Below, in pieces: positions 2,811 through 63,303 of a stretch of DNA of 64,000 nt. The position numbers and the translations under genes are program-made. Below the pieces are notes generated by a model, which saw only the letters and a list, made by a program, of their open reading frames with translations, had not been told where the DNA came from and searched no databases. This DNA comes from Candidatus Harrisonbacteria bacterium. GTDB lineage: Bacteria; Patescibacteriota; Minisyncoccia; UBA6257; UBA11618. Location: positions 4,912-68,911 of the forward strand of contig JAHFLN010000001.1 in the NCBI GenBank assembly GCA_023244835.1, in the 5' to 3' direction. Each line of letters starts with the position of its first letter. Positions within the stretch are counted from its first letter, which is position 1.

Positions 2811-2884
2811 GGTGTGAGGATACCATATCGAATTATGAAAAAGGAGTTTCGTACGAATACGAAACTCCTTTTTTCAAATGCGAG

Positions 2885-6059: not shown

Positions 6060-6545
6060 TTATCGTCCGAAAAATGCCGTGCGTACGAGCTCTAAAGGCT
6101 TCCAACCCGCGAATGCGGGCATCGCTTCCATGTCGGCTAGCAGCTCTTTCACCTCTTCGTCGTCGTGGATCAAGACGGCGTTTCCGAGGCGGTAGAGCGC
6201 GCGCCAATCGTCCATTTCCATGGTTTCGGGAAGCTCGTGGATGGTTCTGCACACATCGCGCCGGAGGTCGTCATACGAAGGTATTTCCACGCGCAGTCCG
6301 ACCTGGCGGCGGATTAGCCATTCGTAGGCGATCGGCAGGATGACCGATGCGTAGGCGAGCGTCCGCGCATCGCGCCTGCAGATCTCCCCCATGGCGAATC
6401 CTACCGAGGCGTATGTCAGTCCGACAAACATGGTTAGCGAGGCCATGATACCCGCCCGTTCGACGCGACACATTGCTCGCGCGCGAATCATCGCATGGCA
6501 CGTTCGGAAGACTGTCATGAAAAAGCCGTACTTTCGGTTGAACAT
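6060..6545 (-). CDS. Hypothetical small protein with one hydrophobic segment, inserted between rpsH and rplF
   Basis: 161 aa ORF; AAGGGGG Shine-Dalgarno 5 nt upstream; own terminator and promoter-like context. Confidence 0.5.
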   Translation of the reverse strand: MFNRKYGFFMTVFRTCHAMIRARAMCRVERAGIMASLTMFVGLTYASVGFAMGEICRRDARTLAYASVILPIAYEWLIRRQVGLRVEIPSYDDLRRDVCRTIHELPETMEMDDWRALYRLGNAVLIHDDEEVKELLADMEAMPAFAGWKPLELVRTAFFGR

Positions 6546-8125: not shown

Positions 8126-8251
8126 GGGAACTTAATGGGAATAGTATATCAGAAGCGGATGCGATTATCAAGGATATTGTCATTTCCTTCTATAATCGGC
8201 ATACTAGCATTCGCACCTTTCCATTACTCCTAATCCAGAAAGGGTTTTGCC

Positions 8252-8596
8252 GTGCATCCGAAACGATCGGTTCCCGCGTGGTACGATATTGCGTTTCGCT
8301 GGTTTTTATCTCTCGTTCTCGTCGCTGACGCTCTCGTCGTGTGCCATGCGTTTTCTCTGGCATTCGCATGCATGGGCATGGCTCCGCACGTGCCTGTTCC
8401 GCACGAGATCCGGAACGCCTTCGATATTTCGTGCATGGGCGCTCTTGGCATACTTATCGCTATCCGGATCGATTGGGGGTCCATGCCCGGACATCCGCCG
8501 ATTTCTGAGGATGCCGATTGGGTTCTCTTAAGGATCTTCTTAATGCTCATTTTCGTCGCCTGGGTCATGATGCGGATTATGGGGCATCCGTCATGA
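8252..8596 (+). CDS. Hypothetical membrane protein (GTG start)
   Basis: AGAAAGGG Shine-Dalgarno; several hydrophobic helices; TATAAT at 8193-8198 upstream. Confidence 0.45.
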   Translation: MHPKRSVPAWYDIAFRWFLSLVLVADALVVCHAFSLAFACMGMAPHVPVPHEIRNAFDISCMGALGILIAIRIDWGSMPGHPPISEDADWVLLRIFLMLIFVAWVMMRIMGHPS

Positions 8597-8626
8597 CTCT
8601 CCGTTGCGATCGATGCTTGTGCTAAA

Positions 8627-8671
8627 TAAAAAAAAGCCTGCTCTATCGAAAGGAATGAGCAGGCTTTTTTC
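8627..8671. terminator. Bidirectional rho-independent terminator
   Basis: A9-GCCTGCTC...GAGCAGGC-T7. Confidence 0.65.
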
Positions 8672-8768
8672 TGGCATCAGACGCATTGCCAATTATTCGA
8701 TGTGACAGTATGATTCCGCGTGAGCACATTCCAATTCCCCCCACCCTCTTTTCCAGAAGGAATTTCCC

Positions 8769-9119
8769 ATGGACCAGGATCCTATGCCTCCCGTGCATAT
8801 TCGCCTCGTCGGCATCGCGGTCGTTCTTGTTTTTGTACCAAGTCTTTGTATGTGGATAACCGGTCTCATCGCCACATGCGCATCGGCCCTGCTTTCGCCG
8901 ATTACTCCGATTTCGCTTGAAGGACGGCGGATATTCGGGATTTCCTCGATCTCCCTTCTTGCGAGTCTGGCACTTCTTCGCCTTATCATCGACCGATATC
9001 CGGGACATGAGATCACGCCGGACAAAGACGCAGGATTTCGCCGTATCTTCGTCCTCGTTTCCGTCATAAGCGCCTTGGCGCTTGTCGTGATGGCCCGGTC
9101 GTGGCGGATATTCAGCTAA
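8769..9119 (+). CDS. Hypothetical membrane protein
   Basis: 116 aa, three to four hydrophobic helices; followed by terminator. Confidence 0.45.
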   Translation: MDQDPMPPVHIRLVGIAVVLVFVPSLCMWITGLIATCASALLSPITPISLEGRRIFGISSISLLASLALLRLIIDRYPGHEITPDKDAGFRRIFVLVSVISALALVVMARSWRIFS

Positions 9120-9151
9120 GTCGATCATGCGGAGAGGTCGTGCGCATCATC

Positions 9152-9183
9152 AAAAAACCCGCGCCAGATTGCGCGGGTTTTTC
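9152..9183. terminator. Rho-independent terminator (A6-CCCGCGC-loop-GCGCGGG-T5)
   Basis: Perfect 7 bp GC stem flanked by A and T runs. Confidence 0.65.
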
Positions 9184-9194
9184 TCTCCTATTTT

Positions 9195-9563
9195 TTATAC
9201 GATCTCTTCCGCGAGGGAGAAGATGCCGTCGAAGCCCATTTCCTTGATTTCGCGCGGGATTGGCCCGAAGATGCGTGTCGCGCGCGGCTGCTTCTTGTCG
9301 TCGATCAAGACGACCGCGTTCTCATCGAAGCGCAGGCGCGTGCCATCGGGGCGGTTTATCGCGTGCGCCGTGCGCACGATGATGCATTTCACGATATCCT
9401 TCTTCTTTACCGCCTTCCGAGGCTCTGCGGTCTGGACGGACGCGATGACCGTCTCTCCGAGGTGTGCGTAGCGCTTGCGGCTCCCGCCGAGCAGCCTGAA
9501 GACACGGACGAATTTCGCGCCCGAGTTATCCGCAACTTTCAGTATCGAACGTTCCTGTACCAT
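9195..9563 (-). CDS. rplN: 50S ribosomal protein L14
   Basis: MVQERSILKVADNSGAK L14 N-terminus. Confidence 0.93.
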   Translation of the reverse strand: MVQERSILKVADNSGAKFVRVFRLLGGSRKRYAHLGETVIASVQTAEPRKAVKKKDIVKCIIVRTAHAINRPDGTRLRFDENAVVLIDDKKQPRATRIFGPIPREIKEMGFDGIFSLAEEIV

Positions 9564-9706
9564 ACCCTGTGTTACAAATTAAGCTTATTACTTATAAATC
9601 TATTGAAACTTGATTATACTCCCGATTTCTTTATTTGCCTAGTGTGTTTGCGATTCTTTAATCCCGCATTTTGCGGGATGGCTGAATTTGTAACACGGGG
9701 CATATG
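9561..9706. repeat. Family-1 palindromic intergenic element (terminal inverted repeats CCCTGTGTTACAAATT / AATTTGTAACACGGGG) between rpsQ and rplN
   Basis: ~18 bp inverted arms 105 bp apart; left arm overlaps the rplN start codon; inner hairpin CCCGCATTTTGCGGG. Confidence 0.7.
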
Positions 9707-9707
9707 C

Positions 9708-9959
9708 TTATTCGGCCTTGCCGACGATTATCCAGCGCTTCTCTTTTGACATCGGGCGCGTGGCGTGGATTACGACCGCGTCTCCCGTCTTATATTCGTT
9801 CTTCTCGTCATGCGCCTTGAATCTGGAGTGGACGGTGTATTGCTTCAGATACTTGGGGTGGCGTTTCGTTTCCGAAACCTCGACGACGCGGGTCTTCATC
9901 ATCTTGTCGGAGACGACGATGCCCTGCCGCTTGCGTACGTTTATCGCTTTCTTTTCCAT
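9708..9959 (-). CDS. rpsQ: 30S ribosomal protein S17
   Basis: 83 aa, S17-like GIVVSDKMMKTRVVEV. Confidence 0.9.
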   Translation of the reverse strand: MEKKAINVRKRQGIVVSDKMMKTRVVEVSETKRHPKYLKQYTVHSRFKAHDEKNEYKTGDAVVIHATRPMSKEKRWIIVGKAE

Positions 9960-13884: not shown

Positions 13885-14307
13885 TTATGAGGAAATTTCG
13901 ACAGATCCTTTCCGAGGGCCGGGCACGGCGCCGCGGATGGAAACTTCGCGCGTTTCGGCATTTACCGCGACCACTTTCAAGCCTTTCACGGTTTTCCGGA
14001 TAACGCCCATGTGGCCTGCCATGCGCAAGCCGGGAATGACGCGCTGCGCGGCCGTGTTTCCGATCGAGCCCGGGGCGCGGAAACGGTTCTTTTGACCGTG
14101 GGTTTTCGGGCCGCCGCCGAAATTATGGCGCTTCACCACGCCGGCGAAACCATGGCCCTTCGTGGTGCCGGTTACGGCAACGAGCGAATCTTCGGCGATC
14201 GTTGAAATATCGCCCGCTTCGTCGAGTTTCACGAGGGTTACAGGAATGACAACGTCGCCTTTCCAGACCTGCGTCATTTTCAGTTTCTTTCCGGTTAATC
14301 TAGCCAT
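13885..14307 (-). CDS. rplC: 50S ribosomal protein L3, unusually short (140 aa)
   Basis: KMTQVW...GHGFAGVVKRHNF...GAVPG motifs; lacks ~65 aa internal region relative to E. coli L3. Confidence 0.85.
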   Translation of the reverse strand: MARLTGKKLKMTQVWKGDVVIPVTLVKLDEAGDISTIAEDSLVAVTGTTKGHGFAGVVKRHNFGGGPKTHGQKNRFRAPGSIGNTAAQRVIPGLRMAGHMGVIRKTVKGLKVVAVNAETREVSIRGAVPGPRKGSVEISS

Positions 14308-14455
14308 ATGCGACTATCGTGAAAACAGTTTTTTAATAATAGAGTATCCGACTGCTTTTTGCAAGGAGTATTGCCATATCAAGCGTCCCGTGGCATACTG
14401 GCTCCGCGTCAGGTCTTCGAAAATCTACCATCTCCTAATCAGAAAGGAGGCTCGC

Positions 14456-15157
14456 ATGCCTTCTCAATCGAATCCGTCGCAACGGATTCTCATGGTTCAT
14501 GCCTATGGATTCCGCGATGCCGCGCATCTTGGCGCGCTTACGCTCGCCGTGTGCAGGAAAGTCTTGAAGCATGCCGACGATTATGACCGGATCATCCTTT
14601 TGGGCGGCTGGGACACGAAAGGAAAGCCTGCCCGCCCGACTTCAGCCGAACTCATGGCTATATGGCTTATCGAGCATGGCGTCTCTCCGAACAAGCTCGT
14701 CGGCCAAATCACTGCGGGAGAGCGTTCCCGAAACCGACGGCCTGCGCGCGACACCATCGAAGAAGCAGATTTGGCGGGGATCATTCTCCGGGATCTCTAC
14801 CCTGGCGCGCATTTGCAGGAAATCCGCTTCGATGCCGTAGGCGCTTGGTTCCATGCGCCGCGCATCAAGATAATTTGGTGGAAACGAACCCCGCGTCTCG
14901 GGCGATTCCTGCATGCGTTCTCGTGGCGCATGCTCCTGCCCGACATGTGGTGGCGGATGTTCGAGGAGATTCCCGGCATCTGGCTTACTCGGCGCGATCC
15001 GCTCGGTACGGGAGATTTCTTCCGATGGTTGCGTCGTGGACGAACGCATGAGCATGTCATGAGTGAATATTCCGCGAATACCATCGATGCGTGGTATCCC
15101 GAACGATCCGTTTTCGATCGGCCTGCGGCATGCACGAGCCTGCCCGCATCGGAATGA
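14456..15157 (+). CDS. DUF218 (YdcF/SanA-like) domain protein
   Basis: AAAGGAGG Shine-Dalgarno at 14443-14450; RIILLGG...SAELMAIWLIEHGV...RDTIEEA pattern; the upstream part of track ORF 14162..15157 is antisense to rplC and discarded. Confidence 0.55.
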   Translation: MPSQSNPSQRILMVHAYGFRDAAHLGALTLAVCRKVLKHADDYDRIILLGGWDTKGKPARPTSAELMAIWLIEHGVSPNKLVGQITAGERSRNRRPARDTIEEADLAGIILRDLYPGAHLQEIRFDAVGAWFHAPRIKIIWWKRTPRLGRFLHAFSWRMLLPDMWWRMFEEIPGIWLTRRDPLGTGDFFRWLRRGRTHEHVMSEYSANTIDAWYPERSVFDRPAACTSLPASE

Positions 15158-15323
15158 CCGGCTCAATGCCCTCATTCCAGCTCTTTCGCGTTTTCTCCCT
15201 TTTTTGCCGTCTTGTCCTCATTAGGATCGGACGGCATTTGATTTTATATTCGATATGTGGCATACTAGGCGCAGCTCGAGTAGGCATATCGCCCGCTCAC
15301 CAACTTGAACAAGGAGACCGCCC

Positions 15324-15698
15324 GTGCTTAAGCGATTCGTGATCTTCATGCTTTTGAATGCCGAGGGACTTCCCCGCGGCGGCGGAGGCTGCAAAGACTT
15401 CATGATGACTGATGATGGCAAAAACATTGCTTCGTGGGATAGTCAGGATGAGGCCATTGAGGCCCTTCGAACGCGATTCCCTCTTCGATGCAATGTCGCG
15501 CAAGTGTGCGACACGAATGATAATTCTTTCGTTGAGCTTCTGCTGAAACGTGTTTGGGAGCTTCCCGAGACGCCGAAGTCGCAGCAGCAGCAACGAGGAG
15601 GAGGCGACCAGTCACGCAGCGATCGAGAACGGCCGCAACAGCAGCACTCTTCGAACCCTCCGCCTCCGAAAGGCGATGGCGGCGGCCCTTCGAAGTAA
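15324..15698 (+). CDS. Hypothetical secreted or membrane protein with low-complexity Gln/Gly/Pro C-terminus (GTG start)
   Basis: AAGGAG Shine-Dalgarno; TTGATT-17-CATACT promoter at ~15230-15265. Confidence 0.4.
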   Translation: MLKRFVIFMLLNAEGLPRGGGGCKDFMMTDDGKNIASWDSQDEAIEALRTRFPLRCNVAQVCDTNDNSFVELLLKRVWELPETPKSQQQQRGGGDQSRSDRERPQQQHSSNPPPPKGDGGGPSK

Positions 15699-15730
15699 TT
15701 TTCTTGCGATAGACGCATCCTTCACCCTCC

Positions 15731-15756
15731 CTCGCCCTTTCCGGGCGAGTTTTTTT
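15731..15756 (+). terminator. Rho-independent terminator (CTCGCCC-TTTCC-GGGCGAG-T7)
   Basis: Perfect 7 bp stem plus T7. Confidence 0.65.
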
Positions 15757-15761
15757 GTATG

Positions 15762-15787
15762 AAAAAACCGCCTTTCGGCGGTTCTTT
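15762..15787 (-). terminator. Rho-independent terminator after rpsJ (CCGCC-GAAA-GGCGG plus T-run on minus)
   Basis: Hairpin plus A6 on plus strand. Confidence 0.55.
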
Positions 15788-15789
15788 CA

Positions 15790-16116
15790 TTACATCATCT
15801 TTATCTCAATATCGACGCCCGCGGGCAGGTTGAGCTTGGAAAGCGCTTCAACGATGCCCGGCGTGATATTGAATATATCTATCAGCCGCTTGTGCACGCG
15901 GAGCTCGAATTGCTCGCGCGAGTTCTTATGGACGAAGGTCGAACGGTTCACCGTATACTTGTGAATCTCCGTCGGGAGCGGGATCGGCCCCATCACCTCG
16001 ACGTCATATCGTCTCGCGGTTTCAACGATCTGGCGCGCCGAGCTGTCGATCAGCTTGTGATCGTACGCCTTGATGCGGAGGCGGAGCTTCTCTACTTTCG
16101 GCTTTTCCTTGACCAT
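15790..16116 (-). CDS. rpsJ: 30S ribosomal protein S10
   Basis: [14 protein letters not shown]...GPIPLPT S10 motifs. Confidence 0.93.
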
Positions 16117-52367: not shown

Positions 52368-53480
52368 TTATTTGAAAATCTCCGGCCGATACCTATTGCT
52401 CGGGTTCCAATTGAGCCACCCCGCGGATAGGCCCGCGTCATGGATTGCCCGTATCTGCGCGCGTACCATCTCAGGCGTATAGTCCGCGCCCATATTGAAA
52501 TCCTGAATCCACGGCCTAATATTCGTGAATGGCTGATTTGCGGCCATAAATATCTCCTTCCCCTTCGCGAGCGTACCCGCCATCACCTCATAAGGATGCG
52601 CCGCCGGATTATCGAAGCCGAAATTGCCCGCGTCGAAATGCGACGGGTAAATCATCGGACAAATCGCATCAAATACTGCCGCGAGAGCCGGCGCCGACTG
52701 ACCGATACCGAGATCCGCCTTTCGCATAAAGGTGTAGCCGAAAATATCGGCGGTTAAGCGGATATCCGGATAGTCCCTCTTGATCTCATTTTTCAGATAA
52801 TTCGCGGCCTCTACGATAACATCGCTTTTTTCCCTACCAGCCCCTTCCCGCCAGAATGGATAAACCGCGGTCGTCACTCCTTCGGAGGGAAACCTAAAAT
52901 AATCGAAATTAATTTCACCGAAACCCGCGTCAACCGCTTCCTTCGCGATGCCCGCAACATGCGCCCACGCCTCCTTATTACTCGGATCGAGCCAATGCCG
53001 CCCTCCATTATCGCGCCATAAGCCGCCGCCAGCGCCGTGTACGGCCCAACTCGGCTTCTCTGCCGCTATATTATTATTCTGAAACACCACAAGCCGCGCG
53101 ATGGGGAAGATGCGCAGGAACCGCAAGCGGCGGATCGCCGCACGCAGACGATCATCGATTAAAACGCGCCCGGAATCGTCTTGGATATCCACAACGACCG
53201 CATTCGGCGCCATGTCACCCGAAGCGTCTTTTATAAGACTCACGATGCCGTCCATCTTTCCGCTCCGCAGGATCGAGGCGGTAATATACAGCGCTCGAAC
53301 TTCTGCCGGATATTCGAGAGGAGTAAGCGGCGGGAGAACGATCTGATCCGGAGCTACTACCGCTACCGCTTGAGCCTCCTGCCCCATAGACGCCGGAACG
53401 GGACGGGTGGTTATGAACGCCGCGCCCGATGCTGAAACAATCATAAGCGCCGATGCGAGCACTTTCGCCTTACCGGGCAT
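52368..53480 (-). CDS. Putative glycoside-hydrolase-like TIM-barrel protein (DUF4015-like), signal-anchored
   Basis: ...INFDYFRFPSEG... pattern; start chosen at MPGKAKVLASALMIV. Confidence 0.45.
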   Translation of the reverse strand: MPGKAKVLASALMIVSASGAAFITTRPVPASMGQEAQAVAVVAPDQIVLPPLTPLEYPAEVRALYITASILRSGKMDGIVSLIKDASGDMAPNAVVVDIQDDSGRVLIDDRLRAAIRRLRFLRIFPIARLVVFQNNNIAAEKPSWAVHGAGGGLWRDNGGRHWLDPSNKEAWAHVAGIAKEAVDAGFGEINFDYFRFPSEGVTTAVYPFWREGAGREKSDVIVEAANYLKNEIKRDYPDIRLTADIFGYTFMRKADLGIGQSAPALAAVFDAICPMIYPSHFDAGNFGFDNPAAHPYEVMAGTLAKGKEIFMAANQPFTNIRPWIQDFNMGADYTPEMVRAQIRAIHDAGLSAGWLNWNPSNRYRPEIFK

Positions 53481-54327
53481 ACGGGAAAATAACGATGAAC
53501 CACGCGGCGGCCGACAGGAGCACCGCGAGGACCTTCTCGGGAAGATTCGCAACGAGGCTTTTCCGAAGCTCTATCTTCTTCGGATCGTATTTATCCCGCA
53601 TGAATTCTCCGATCGCCTGCTTAAGCTCCTCAGCCGATGCCATAACCGCAAGACGCCCGTCACGGGCGACCGAAATCGTTCCCTTTTCCTCCGATACGAT
53701 GACGGCGAGCACGTCGGACACTTCGGCGATACCCAAGCCCGCGCTATGGCGCGTGCCGTACGATTCGATCTGCCCGAAATCCTGCGACAACGGAAGGTGC
53801 ACGCCGAATTTAGCAATAAGCCCGCCCGCGATTACAAGAGCTCCATCATGCCCCGGCGAGCTCGCGTCGAATATACTTTCAAGGAGAGGCTCTGAGATCT
53901 TCCCCTCGAGTGAAAATCCGCCGCTTAAGTGGCGGCCGATCGCTTCACGGCCCGTGAATACCACGATCATGCCGATTTTCTCCTTACTGAAACGCTCCGC
54001 AACCCGCACTACGCACTCAACAATACCCGTTCCCGGCCGTTTCTTCATCGAGGCTCCTCCCGCGCCTATCCATATGGCGATCATCTCGAAATATCTCCGC
54101 AGTTCCGCCTGGAATATAATCACAAGGCCGAGCAGAAATACGCTGAAAAAAAGATTCAACGCCGCGGCGGACAGACGTAAGCCAAATGTGTTTGCGGCGG
54201 CATAGACTACGGATACGACGATAATCCCGTACACGACGAAGAGCGACCGCGTCTGCTTCAGGAGCATGATAAGCCCGTACGTGAGGAACGAAGAAAGCCC
54301 GATATCGAGAATATCTATCAATCTCAT
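53470..54327 (-). CDS. cdaA: Diadenylate cyclase CdaA (c-di-AMP synthase)
   Basis: N-terminal TM helices; DAC domain motifs DGALVI, GTRHSAGLGIAE, AVIVSEE. Confidence 0.85.
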   Translation of the reverse strand: MRLIDILDIGLSSFLTYGLIMLLKQTRSLFVVYGIIVVSVVYAAANTFGLRLSAAALNLFFSVFLLGLVIIFQAELRRYFEMIAIWIGAGGASMKKRPGTGIVECVVRVAERFSKEKIGMIVVFTGREAIGRHLSGGFSLEGKISEPLLESIFDASSPGHDGALVIAGGLIAKFGVHLPLSQDFGQIESYGTRHSAGLGIAEVSDVLAVIVSEEKGTISVARDGRLAVMASAEELKQAIGEFMRDKYDPKKIELRKSLVANLPEKVLAVLLSAAAWFIVIFPYAR

Positions 54328-54335
54328 ATGAGCAG

Positions 54336-54430
54336 TATACCCCGTGTTACAAATCCGACCATATATGACCCGTCATATTAGCTCGTCCATAGCGTTTCTA
54401 CACCACGTCGGATTTGTAACACGGGGTATA
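54336..54430. repeat. Family-1 palindromic element: perfect 24 bp inverted repeat TATACCCCGTGTTACAAATCCGAC / GTCGGATTTGTAACACGGGGTATA
   Basis: Arms 54336-54359 and 54407-54430; 47 bp spacer; begins 9 nt from cdaA start codon. Confidence 0.8.
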
Positions 54431-54440
54431 CCTCGTCGTG

Positions 54441-54489
54441 AAAAAAATACAGCCGCTCTACCCGATACCGGGAGCGGCTGTATTTTTTA
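54441..54489. terminator. Bidirectional rho-independent terminator
   Basis: A7-ATACAGCCGCTC...GAGCGGCTGTAT-T6. Confidence 0.7.
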
Positions 54490-62022: not shown

Positions 62023-62141
62023 TGTTTTCCGTACGCCTTATCCGACGACCTTTATATATATCCATAGTATCACGACGATATCTCCTTTTCGCAACGCCCC
62101 CGATGCTTGACGCGCGACCGATAATCTCCGTATGCTCCGAT

Positions 62142-62278
62142 CATGCCCCGTGTTATAAATCCGATCTTTCCCGCGGGGAAAATAAAAAACCACGAAATCC
62201 ATATATGATAATCAGAACGATGCATATCAATGACCCCTATCAACCCGATAATCAATCGGATTTGTAACACGGGGCATG
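62142..62278. repeat. Family-1 palindromic element: CATGCCCCGTGTTATAAATCCGAT / ATCGGATTTGTAACACGGGGCATG (23/24 match)
   Basis: Arms 62142-62165 and 62255-62278, 89 bp spacer; right-arm terminal ATG is the dcd start codon. Confidence 0.8.
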
Positions 62279-62944
62279 TTACTCTCAGCACCCGCGATAC
62301 TGCGCCATATAAAGAAAGGAACGATCACGGTCGACCCGTACGACGCGAAGAATCTCGGCAACGCGAGCTTCGACGTGACACTCGGCGAACATTACTACCG
62401 CGAACATGCTCCGCAGAACGGAAACGCCGTCTTCAACCTCTATAATGAGGCGGATACCTACCGCGTATGGGGAAAGAAGCATGAGACCGCCCAGCCGTTC
62501 GGTAGAAATGACACGCCCGGCATCGGAGCGAAAGACCTGGTAATTTGGCTCGCTCCCGGCGAAACGATCCTCGCCCACACTCGGGAATTCATCGGCGGCA
62601 CGGAAACGGTGGACGCGATGCTTAAAGCGCGCTCCTCGACTGCGCGTAATTTTATAAGCGTATGCAAGTGCGCCGGCTGGGGCGACGTCGGCTATGTGAA
62701 CCGCTGGACGATGCAGATAACGAACCACAGCAGGCACTATCATATCCCGCTCGTCGTGGGCCGTCGCATCGCCCAGATCGTCTTCTTTGAAGTCGAACCG
62801 CTCGTTGAGAAGGATAACGCGGGCGCCTACGGCAAGAAGAAAGACGGTAAATATCAAGCTTCTGCCAACCTGAAGACCATTAAAAAGAACTGGAAACCGG
62901 CAGACATGCTGCCGAAGATGTGGAAGGATCGGGACGTGAAGTAA
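62276..62944 (+). CDS. dcd: dCTP deaminase family protein
   Basis: N-terminus ILSAPAILRHIKKGTITVDPYD...SFDVTLG and GRRIAQIVF dUTPase-fold motifs. Confidence 0.8.
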   Translation: MLLSAPAILRHIKKGTITVDPYDAKNLGNASFDVTLGEHYYREHAPQNGNAVFNLYNEADTYRVWGKKHETAQPFGRNDTPGIGAKDLVIWLAPGETILAHTREFIGGTETVDAMLKARSSTARNFISVCKCAGWGDVGYVNRWTMQITNHSRHYHIPLVVGRRIAQIVFFEVEPLVEKDNAGAYGKKKDGKYQASANLKTIKKNWKPADMLPKMWKDRDVK

Positions 62945-63303
62945 ATCCGAAATTCGAATATCGAAATTCGAAAACGGATCACTTCTCCGCCTTACGAACT
63001 ATCGAGCCAAAAATCATCATAAGCTCGGCGCATTCCCCAATCAGCTCGGCGCAGCGTCCCTCATCCCCTTCTAATAATCGCAACCAATATATGCTCTCTT
63101 TCGCCTCTTTGCGGCAAATCCTTATCCGCATCAAAAAATCTTTTTCGCCCAAGGCCTCGTTCGCCTCGATATAATTCGCGCCGACCGAAGCCGACGATCG
63201 TATAAGCTGTTTCGAATATTCCTTACAGCGAATGCCAATGTCCTGTCCTCTAAATCGTATACGGCCATCCGTCTATCTTTTTTTTCGGATTTCGGATTTC
63301 GAG
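62943..63303. repeat. Non-coding segment bounded by inverted terminal repeats built from tandem CGAAATYCGAA units
   Basis: Left AAATCCGAAATTCGAATATCGAAATTCGAAAACGG; right (rc) CTCGAAATCCGAAATCCGAAAAAAAA; lies between convergent genes. Confidence 0.5.

What the first reader, a model, noticed from the sequence alone, without database searches (positions are those of the whole stretch)
9561..9706. Family-1 palindromic element (core CCCCGTGTTACAAATCCGA) inserted between rpsQ and rplN inside the ribosomal operon
This is one of three copies in the window; the others are at 54336-54430 and 62142-62278. All share 18-24 bp terminal inverted repeats and a spacer of 47-105 bp. The spacers are largely unrelated, apart from a shared CCATATATGA in copies B and C. 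In each copy the gene-proximal arm ends within 0-10 nt of a start codon (rplN, cdaA, dcd), so ...GTAACACGGGG(Y)AT sits where a Shine-Dalgarno would be. In the transcript the two arms would form a long hairpin that includes the ribosome-binding region. This could be a MITE-like or REP-like repeat family that has been co-opted as a 5'UTR, or a dedicated translational control hairpin. The rpsQ-rplN junction is normally only a few nt.
Basis: seen in the sequence. Interest (0 to 1): 0.75.

Follow-up and report, generated by a model that had tools for sequence, protein, structure and literature searches.

The report
Hairpin-forming mobile element in a Parcubacteria genome
The 144-base insert between rpsQ and rplN is one copy of a small mobile inverted-repeat element (MITE-like) in an uncultured Parcubacteria genome; it duplicates four bases on insertion and so rebuilds the start codon it lands on. 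This is an ordinary kind of element, but in a phylum where I found none described.

Summary
Three elements (9561-9704, 54336-54430, 62142-62278) share 19-25 nt inverted arms, (YATR)CCCCGTGTTACAAATCCGA, around unrelated AT-rich spacers.

They are insertions, not a built-in control hairpin. The closest relatives have a 7-11 nt rpsQ-rplN gap and an uninterrupted dcd start site. The filled sites carry exact 4-bp duplications: TATG, CATG and TATA.

The downstream duplicate rebuilds the rplN and dcd start codons, and the first four bases of the cdaA -10 box. That explains why an arm abuts each start. The GGGG is not a Shine-Dalgarno sequence. This genome shows no such signal, and many genes have a -10 box exactly 6 nt before ATG, which suggests leaderless mRNAs.

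The family was not found in GTDB representative genomes, viral contigs, plasmids or Rfam. An old copy sits upstream of a surface-protein gene in related Parcubacteria. There the 29-bp stem has six compensatory pairs, and every non-Watson-Crick transition cell is G·U on the sense strand. Its 3' arm is translated as part of the signal peptide.

Verdict: a MITE-like element that behaves like Neisseria Correia elements. It is a new member of a known kind. No transposase partner was found.

The parts
9561..9564 (-). Copy A, downstream target-site duplicate (TATG on the - strand). It supplies the rplN start codon (9563-9561).
   Evidence: Sequence. The empty sites in L035, L038 and L039 have a single ...ATGGTACAGG.
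9565..9587 (-). Copy A, 3' arm in the sense of rplN (...AAGCTTAATTTGTAACACAGGG).
9588..9677 (-). Copy A spacer (33% GC). It holds a small stem-loop ATCCCGCAAAATGCGGGAT (9661-9679) and a promoter-like TAGGCA-17-TATAAT (9641-9613).
   Evidence: The promoter match is a consensus hit only: 1 found against 0.7 expected.
9678..9700 (-). Copy A, 5' arm in the sense of rplN (CCCCGTGTTACAAATTCAGCCAT).
9701..9704 (-). Copy A, upstream target-site duplicate (TATG), 4 nt after the rpsQ stop (9708-9710). Its ATG opens a 29-codon ORF at 9703-9614 (MPRVTNSAIPQNAGLKNRKHTRQIKKSGV*).
54336..54430 (-). Copy B: TATA duplicate (54336-54339), 87-nt core (54340-54426), TATA duplicate (54427-54430). The gene-proximal duplicate forms the first 4 nt of a -10 hexamer TATACT (reverse complement of 54334-54339), which lies exactly 6 nt before the cdaA ATG (54327-54325).
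   Evidence: The terminator of the preceding gene is at 54442-54488 (repeat I8).
62107..62136 (+). Native dcd promoter-like site TTGACG-18-TATGCT. It ends 6 nt before the upstream ATG duplicate (62143) and is conserved in the relative's empty site.
62142..62278 (+). Copy C: CATG duplicate (62142-62145), 129-nt core (62146-62274), CATG duplicate (62275-62278), which supplies the dcd start at 62276. The upstream ATG opens a 21-codon ORF at 62143-62208 (MPRVINPIFPAGKIKNHEIHI*).
   Evidence: The L040 empty site reads ...CTCCGATCATGTTACTCTC.

Best explanation
**What it is.** A non-autonomous, MITE-like mobile element of a Parcubacteria (Patescibacteria) lineage. It consists of two 19-25 nt terminal inverted repeats, CCCCGTGTTACAAATCCGA...TCGGATTTGTAACACGGGG, around an AT-rich spacer of variable sequence.

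**How it inserts.**
- Inferred: a transposase supplied in trans recognises the repeats and makes a 4-nt staggered cut at a YATR site.
- Shown: each insertion is flanked by a 4-bp duplication (TATG, CATG, TATA).
- This genome has many genes with a -10 box exactly 6 nt before ATG and no Shine-Dalgarno signal. Its few tolerated YATR sites are therefore largely start codons (YATG) and -10 boxes (TATA..).
- The downstream duplicate rebuilds that signal, so the gene stays intact with an arm flush against its start.

**Consequences (inferred).**
- Copy A breaks the 4-nt stop-to-start coupling of rpsQ and rplN. It places a 23-bp stem in the polycistronic RNA.
- In A and C the upstream ATG duplicate keeps the native initiation context. 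It would start a short element-encoded ORF (MPRV...). Translating that ORF would open the stem and free the real AUG.
- Copy B replaces the -35 region of the cdaA promoter and is probably not transcribed with cdaA.

**The old copy (shown).** At a He_PIG surface-protein locus in relatives, the stem has been kept by selection at the RNA level on the sense strand. The 3' arm has become coding sequence.
For: **Real and non-random.**

**Insertion status.**
- The rpsQ-rplN gap is 11 nt in L035 (S3 97% identical) and 7 nt in L038 and L039, against 144 nt in the window.
- The dcd empty site in L040 is ...GATCATGTTAC..., against ...GAT[CATG]core[CATG]TTAC... in the window.
- blastn alignments to the relatives break at the edges of copies A and B.

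**Same arms elsewhere.** They occur at an unrelated locus in independent metagenomes and MAGs: L016, L018, L044-L048.

**No coding capacity for a transposase.** The cores are 87-136 nt.

**RNA hairpin.**
- Fold z-scores are -5.3 to -8.9.
- The old copy has a 29-pair stem with 98.8% of cells paired and 6 pairs changed on both sides (0 of 500 shuffles reach this). Slid controls give 36-48% paired.
- All 18 non-Watson-Crick transition cells, in 8 columns, are G·U on the sense strand; none is A·C.

**Gene-start architecture.**
- Shine-Dalgarno motifs occur in 13 of 76 ORFs, against 12% background.
- TAnnnT lies exactly 6 nt before ATG in 12 of 58 genes.
- The dcd and cdaA promoters fit this spacing.

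**Precedent.** Correia elements are co-transcribed and cut by RNase III at their repeats, and MITEs can fuse in frame with ORFs (PMC10969869). rnc and rnj are retained in at least 90% of CPR genomes (PMC12641178).
Against: - No autonomous element or transposase with matching repeats was found. The source genome beyond the window could not be read.
- The spacers are unrelated, which is unusual for a bacterial MITE family.
- Only three copies are known in the source genome. No copy was seen in about 75 kb from three close relatives of the window genome (L035, L040, L038, L039; L036, L037, L041 and L042 duplicate the first two), nor elsewhere in about 70 kb from other related genomes.
- The exact 20-mer arm is absent from GTDB representative genomes.
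- At the old locus the flanks are an inverted repeat (AATA/TATT), not a direct one, so no duplication can be read there.
- The YATR target rests on three sites.
- All statements about transcription starts, the short ORFs and processing are inferred from sequence alone.
Confidence: 0.8

Rival explanations
1. The window copies are themselves selected regulatory hairpins: 5'-leader or intercistronic structures that control translation or mRNA processing of rplN, dcd and cdaA. On this view they are domesticated rather than merely tolerated.
For: Strong stems include the start codon in A and C. At the He_PIG locus the same element is clearly kept under selection for RNA pairing. RNase III and RNase J are near-universal in CPR.
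Against: All three copies are absent from the closest relatives. Copy A already has a C·A and a C·U mismatch in the sense stem. Copy B lies upstream of the retained -10 box and after a terminator, so it is probably outside the cdaA mRNA. The three target genes are functionally unrelated. Closeness to starts is explained by target duplication.
Confidence: 0.15
2. The arms are paired binding sites for a DNA-binding protein, giving operator-like sites that loop 50-100 bp of promoter DNA. The parallel changes in both arms would then reflect co-evolution with that protein rather than RNA pairing.
For: At the He_PIG locus the 5' arm lies just upstream of a conserved TTGCTA (-35-like) and the 3' arm just downstream of the start. 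Copy B replaces the -35 region of cdaA. The arm spacing of 47-96 nt resembles known looping distances (my own knowledge).
Against: All 18 non-Watson-Crick transition cells, in 8 alignment columns, are G·U on the sense strand. DNA recognition does not predict that bias; RNA pairing does. One pair shows the path C-G, U·G, U-A. A and C carry target duplications like a transposon. No candidate regulator is known.
Confidence: 0.05
3. It is a REP/REPIN-type element moved by a RAYT (IS200/IS605-like, HUH) transposase through single-stranded DNA hairpins.
For: Two conserved units lie in inverted orientation around a poorly conserved spacer, outside genes. That layout resembles REPINs (my own knowledge).
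Against: Exact 4-bp target duplications are present at A and C, and HUH transposition makes none. Read by eye, a single arm is not a palindrome on its own (not tested by folding). No RAYT gene was seen in the window, though I did not search for one systematically.
Confidence: 0.03

Closest known systems
Correia repeat enclosed elements (CREE/NEMIS) of Neisseria
   Same: Size of about 100-150 bp with repeats of about 25 nt. They insert next to genes and are co-transcribed. They form long RNA stems, which RNase III cuts in Neisseria. The junction of the element end and the target duplicate can create or rebuild promoter signals (PMC2649163; PMC10969869).
   Different: The repeat sequence is unrelated. 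The duplication here is 4 bp (YATR) rather than TA. Correia elements have a conserved core with an IHF site, whereas these spacers are unrelated to each other. The host phylum is different. RNase III cleavage was not tested here.
Rickettsia palindromic elements and other MITEs that fuse with ORFs
   Same: At the He_PIG locus the 3' arm and part of the spacer are translated (..VGF[V/A]TRGI..) as the N-terminal part of a signal peptide. This holds in 12 of 15 orthologues that are 65-82% identical.
   Different: Here the element extends the N-terminus from outside the gene rather than inserting in frame inside it. The noncoding partner arm is kept complementary.
REP/REPIN elements
   Same: Inverted pair of conserved units around a variable spacer, located outside genes and forming a hairpin.
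   Different: A target duplication is present. By eye the single units are not palindromic. No RAYT gene is known here.

Membership tests
MITE (non-autonomous element with terminal inverted repeats) | Small size with no transposase ORF | tested here: met
   Cores are 87, 129 and 136 nt. Only 21- and 29-codon incidental ORFs are present.
MITE (non-autonomous element with terminal inverted repeats) | Terminal inverted repeats shared by all copies | tested here: met
   Arms of 19-25 nt with at most 1 mismatch in the 15-nt core across six arms. The same arms occur in L016, L018 and L044-L048.
MITE (non-autonomous element with terminal inverted repeats) | Target-site duplication, checked against an empty site | tested here: met
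   CATG for copy C against L040, and TATG for copy A against L035, L038 and L039. TATA flanks copy B.
MITE (non-autonomous element with terminal inverted repeats) | Several copies per genome and presence/absence differences between relatives | tested here: met
   Three copies in 64 kb. All three sites are empty in the closest relatives. A genome-wide count was not possible.
MITE (non-autonomous element with terminal inverted repeats) | A cognate autonomous insertion sequence with the same repeats | not testable with these tools
There were no hits in GTDB representatives, viral contigs or plasmids.
Correia element (CREE) | Correia repeat sequence, TA duplication and a conserved core | tested here: not met
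   The arm sequence read in the window is CCCCGTGTTACAAAT... The duplication is 4 bp. The spacers are unrelated. That Correia repeats differ from this sequence rests on my own knowledge; no alignment to a Correia element was run.
REP/REPIN | No target duplication; each unit an imperfect palindrome; an associated RAYT gene | tested here: not met
   A 4-bp duplication is present. By eye a single arm has no internal stem (not folded on its own). The RAYT gene could not be checked genome-wide.
Any Rfam RNA family | Covariance-model match | tested here: not met
   At gathering threshold the whole window gives only tRNA-Ser. At E up to 1 there is nothing in 9480-9800.

The most novel reading that the evidence does not exclude
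In Parcubacteria whose genes appear to be mostly leaderless, this element would be more than a parasite. On insertion at a start codon it turns a leaderless gene into one with a long 5' stem and a short element-encoded ORF. Over time it can become a selected RNA module. At the He_PIG locus the 29-bp stem has been kept through six compensatory changes, while the element donated the start codon and signal-peptide residues, and possibly the promoter. The stem might be an RNase III or RNase J processing or stability signal, or a switch between read-through and locally started transcripts. That would make it a MITE-derived post-transcriptional control element specific to CPR bacteria.
Probability: 0.3. 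Interest if true: 0.7.

Novelty: new member of a known kind. Interest (0 to 1): 0.45.

Why it matters
- Mobile repeats are rarely reported in the very small genomes of Patescibacteria. Full-text searches here found no description of MITEs in this phylum.
- This family shows that such genomes still take up small transposable elements, even inside the conserved ribosomal-protein cluster.
- It offers a simple rule for why they survive there: the target duplication rebuilds the start codon or the -10 box.
- The exapted copy is a clean natural case of a transposon arm becoming both coding sequence and half of a conserved RNA stem.
- For annotation, these elements create false N-terminal extensions and short spurious ORFs.

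Tried and rejected
**Collection scans**
- GTDB representative genomes: the 20-mer arm gave 0 hits. A two-arm 11-mer core gave 15 single hits in unrelated taxa. None has the CCCC extension, so they are at chance level.
- Viral contigs: the 15-mer gave 16 solo hits with no partner arm. A 19-mer consensus gave 0.
- Plasmids: blastn found nothing relevant.
- Rfam: no family matched.
- L017, a single 20-mer arm in a JGI contig, has no partner arm and was treated as chance.

**Ideas rejected**
- Spacer homology between copies.
- A Shine-Dalgarno role for the GGGG.
- A special preference for start codons beyond the YATR target: P about 0.10.

**Weak or unclear**
- The promoter-like site in spacer A is a consensus hit at chance frequency.
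- The 405-aa HTH protein between secY and adk in the relative was checked as a possible transposase. It has only HTH matches.

**Could not be done**
- The source contig (ERZ27296333, 289,656 bp) and the contigs carrying P0249 gave no DNA. A genome-wide copy count was therefore impossible.

Full report
**1. Observation**

The repeat finder reports arms of 23, 25 and 24 nt with 87%, 100% and 96% complementarity. The distances between arms are 96, 47 and 89 nt.

A two-arm pattern, GTGTTAYAAAT...ATTTRTAACAC, matches only these three places in 64 kb. Shuffles give 0.00 expected matches.

Pfam confirms the neighbouring genes:
- S17 at 9708-9959(-)
- L14 at 9195-9563(-)
- CdaA at 53470-54327(-)
- DCD at 62276-62944(+)

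The spacers show no significant similarity to each other. They are AT-rich, at 33-45% GC. The surrounding sequence is mostly 50-60% GC in the 6-12 kb stretch profiled.

**2. Organism**

Ribosomal protein S3 and an FAD oxidoreductase place the window in Patescibacteria/Parcubacteria. The best named hits are 'Candidatus Harrisonbacteria' at about 60-64% identity.

The source is a 289,656-bp contig of ENA assembly ERZ27296333. Its DNA could not be fetched.

The closest available relative is ERZ27280317 / GCA_943349395.1. It is 78-85% identical in nucleotide sequence.

**3. The copies are insertions with a 4-bp target duplication**

*rpsQ-rplN.* The S17-L14 gap is 11 nt in L035 and 7 nt in L038 and L039. 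The window reads ...GAATAAGCA[TATG]-core-[TATG]GTACAGG. The relatives read ...ATATGGTACAGG or ...CACCATGGTACAGG.

*dcd.* The relative L040 reads ...CTCCGATCATGTTACTCTC. The window reads ...CTCCGAT[CATG]CCCCG...CGGGG[CATG]TTACTCTC.

*cdaA.* Copy B is flanked by TATA on both sides.

The element proper is therefore CCCCGTG...CACGGGG, with a YATR duplication. The downstream duplicate provides the ATG of rplN and of dcd. In copy B it provides the first four bases of a TATACT hexamer that sits exactly 6 nt before the cdaA ATG.

The blastn alignments to the relatives stop at the edges of copies A and B.

**4. Why the arms abut start codons**

This genome shows no Shine-Dalgarno signal. Only 13 of 76 ORFs have GGAG, GAGG or AGGA upstream, against a 12% background.

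Instead there is a sharp peak of TAnnnT exactly 6 nt before ATG, in 12 of 58 genes. For gaps of 5-8 nt the rate is 0.24 per gene start, against 0.04 per internal ATG. That is the expected signature of leaderless mRNAs.

The dcd promoter fits this spacing: TTGACG-18-TATGCT-6 nt-ATG. So does the cdaA -10 box.

With a YATR target, tolerated sites are few: 179 in the window outside coding interiors. Of these, 35 (20%) contain a start codon. Two of three copies at a start codon has P of about 0.10. No extra preference for starts is needed.

The GGGG lies 1 nt before the ATG of rplN and dcd and 12 nt before that of cdaA. It does not behave as a ribosome-binding site.

**5. Consequences in the window (inferred)**

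*Copy A.* It separates the rpsQ stop from the rplN start by 144 nt. The predicted stem is strong: -50.1 kcal/mol, z = -5.3.

The upstream TATG copy sits 4 nt after the rpsQ stop. That is the old coupling position. It opens a 29-codon ORF running through the 5' arm. Translating this ORF would melt the stem.

The spacer also has a TAGGCA-17-TATAAT match, but such a match is expected by chance.

*Copy C.* The native promoter now points at the upstream ATG (62143). That ATG opens a 21-codon ORF. The real dcd AUG lies at the base of the stem.

*Copy B.* It lies between a terminator (54442-54488) and the retained -10 box. It has probably replaced the -35 region and is not part of the cdaA mRNA.

Three different contexts argue against a dedicated control device.

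**6. Distribution**

- The exact 20-mer arm is absent from GTDB representative genomes.
- Looser two-arm hits there, and single-arm hits in viral contigs, are chance matches.
- Nothing relevant was found in plasmids or in Rfam.
- The JGI metagenome scan found a complete element in L018 and its orthologue in L016.

**7. An old, exapted copy**

The L018 element lies upstream of a He_PIG/Big_9 surface-protein gene. Twelve of the 15 orthologues that are 65-82% identical begin with ...(K/R)...VGF(V/A)TRGI.... That stretch is the translated 3' arm (TTT GTA ACA CGG GGT AT).

DNA from six more loci, from independent assemblies, shows the whole element at the same place: L016, L044, L045, L046, L047 and L048. 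L044 comes from the same MAG as L043, whose FAD oxidoreductase is 71% identical to the window's.

Results on the six-sequence alignment A2:

| Measure | Result |
|---|---|
| Stem length | 29 pairs |
| Cells forming a standard pair | 98.8% |
| Pairs changed on both sides | 6 (0 of 500 shuffles reach this) |
| Slid-partner controls | 36-48% paired |
| One pair's states | C-G, U·G and U-A |
| Non-Watson-Crick transition cells | 18 cells in 8 columns, all G·U on the sense strand, none A·C |
| Mean pairwise identity, noncoding 5' arm | 84% |
| Mean pairwise identity, flanks | 42-46% |

This is good evidence for selection on an RNA stem in the sense transcript. It rests on only about five independent sequences, and the alignment is of orthologous copies.

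One orthologue, L049 (79% identical), lacks the element. At the same place it has CCCCGTTTGGGGTAT, which looks like a deletion remnant.

**8. Comparison and verdict**

The element meets the structural tests for a MITE: small size, terminal inverted repeats, a verified target duplication, several copies and presence/absence differences. A cognate transposase was not found and could not be searched for in the source genome.

It works like the Correia elements of Neisseria, which are co-transcribed, are cut by RNase III at their repeats and form promoters at their junctions (PMC2649163; PMC10969869). It is not a member of that family. REP/REPIN is rejected because a target duplication is present.

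rnc and rnj are retained in at least 90% of CPR genomes (PMC12641178). Processing or stabilisation of the stem is therefore plausible, but it is untested.

Full-text searches found no report of MITEs in Patescibacteria.

I rate this a new member of a known kind, of moderate interest. The unrelated spacers and the missing transposase remain unexplained.

Noticed in passing
window 8126-9194: The ribosomal-protein cluster is interrupted between rplN and rplX by about 1 kb. An intrinsic terminator follows rplN directly (about 9152-9180, - strand). Two small ORFs lie on the opposite strand (8252-8596 and 8769-9119), hydrophobic by eye and without Pfam matches. A bidirectional terminator-like hairpin lies at 8630-8670. 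rplX then has its own TTGATA-17-TATACT. The same two-gene insert is in relative L035 but not in L038 or L039.
   Followed up: partly
window about 14300-15800 (rpsJ-rplC gap) and 6060-6545 (rpsH-rplF gap): There are further lineage-specific ORFs without Pfam matches inside the S10/spc cluster: two opposite-strand ORFs between S10 and L3, and a 161-aa ORF between S8 and L6. L3 is called at only 140 aa in the window and in all relatives.
   Followed up: no
whole window: The genome-wide start-site pattern suggests mostly leaderless mRNAs. TAnnnT lies exactly 6 nt before ATG in 12 of 58 genes, and there is no enrichment of Shine-Dalgarno motifs.
   Followed up: partly
L049 600-660: The He_PIG orthologue that lacks the element has CCCCGTTTGGGGTAT at the orthologous spot and a different signal peptide. 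This is probably a deletion or excision remnant of the element.
   Followed up: partly
L018 5727-5775 and the same region in L016, L044, L045, L047: The 5' part of the spacer at the He_PIG locus (ATTATTTTGCTACGATGCATGAAACGA) is as conserved as the arms, at 87% pairwise identity. The palindrome ATGCAT occurs twice, once at the start codon. This could be an internal promoter or an inner helix that masks the AUG.
   Followed up: no
L035 18250-19467; window 2828-2883: The close relative has a 405-aa HTH protein gene (Sigma70_r4 and HTH_23 matches only) between secY and adk. The window has only a hairpin with 26-nt arms at that place.
   Followed up: partly
window 62943-62975 and 63284-63299: Short AAATCCGAAATTCGAA / TTCGGATTTCGGATTT repeats flank the region downstream of dcd. 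They share AAATCCGA with the inner end of the arm. This is probably coincidence or a different repeat.
   Followed up: no
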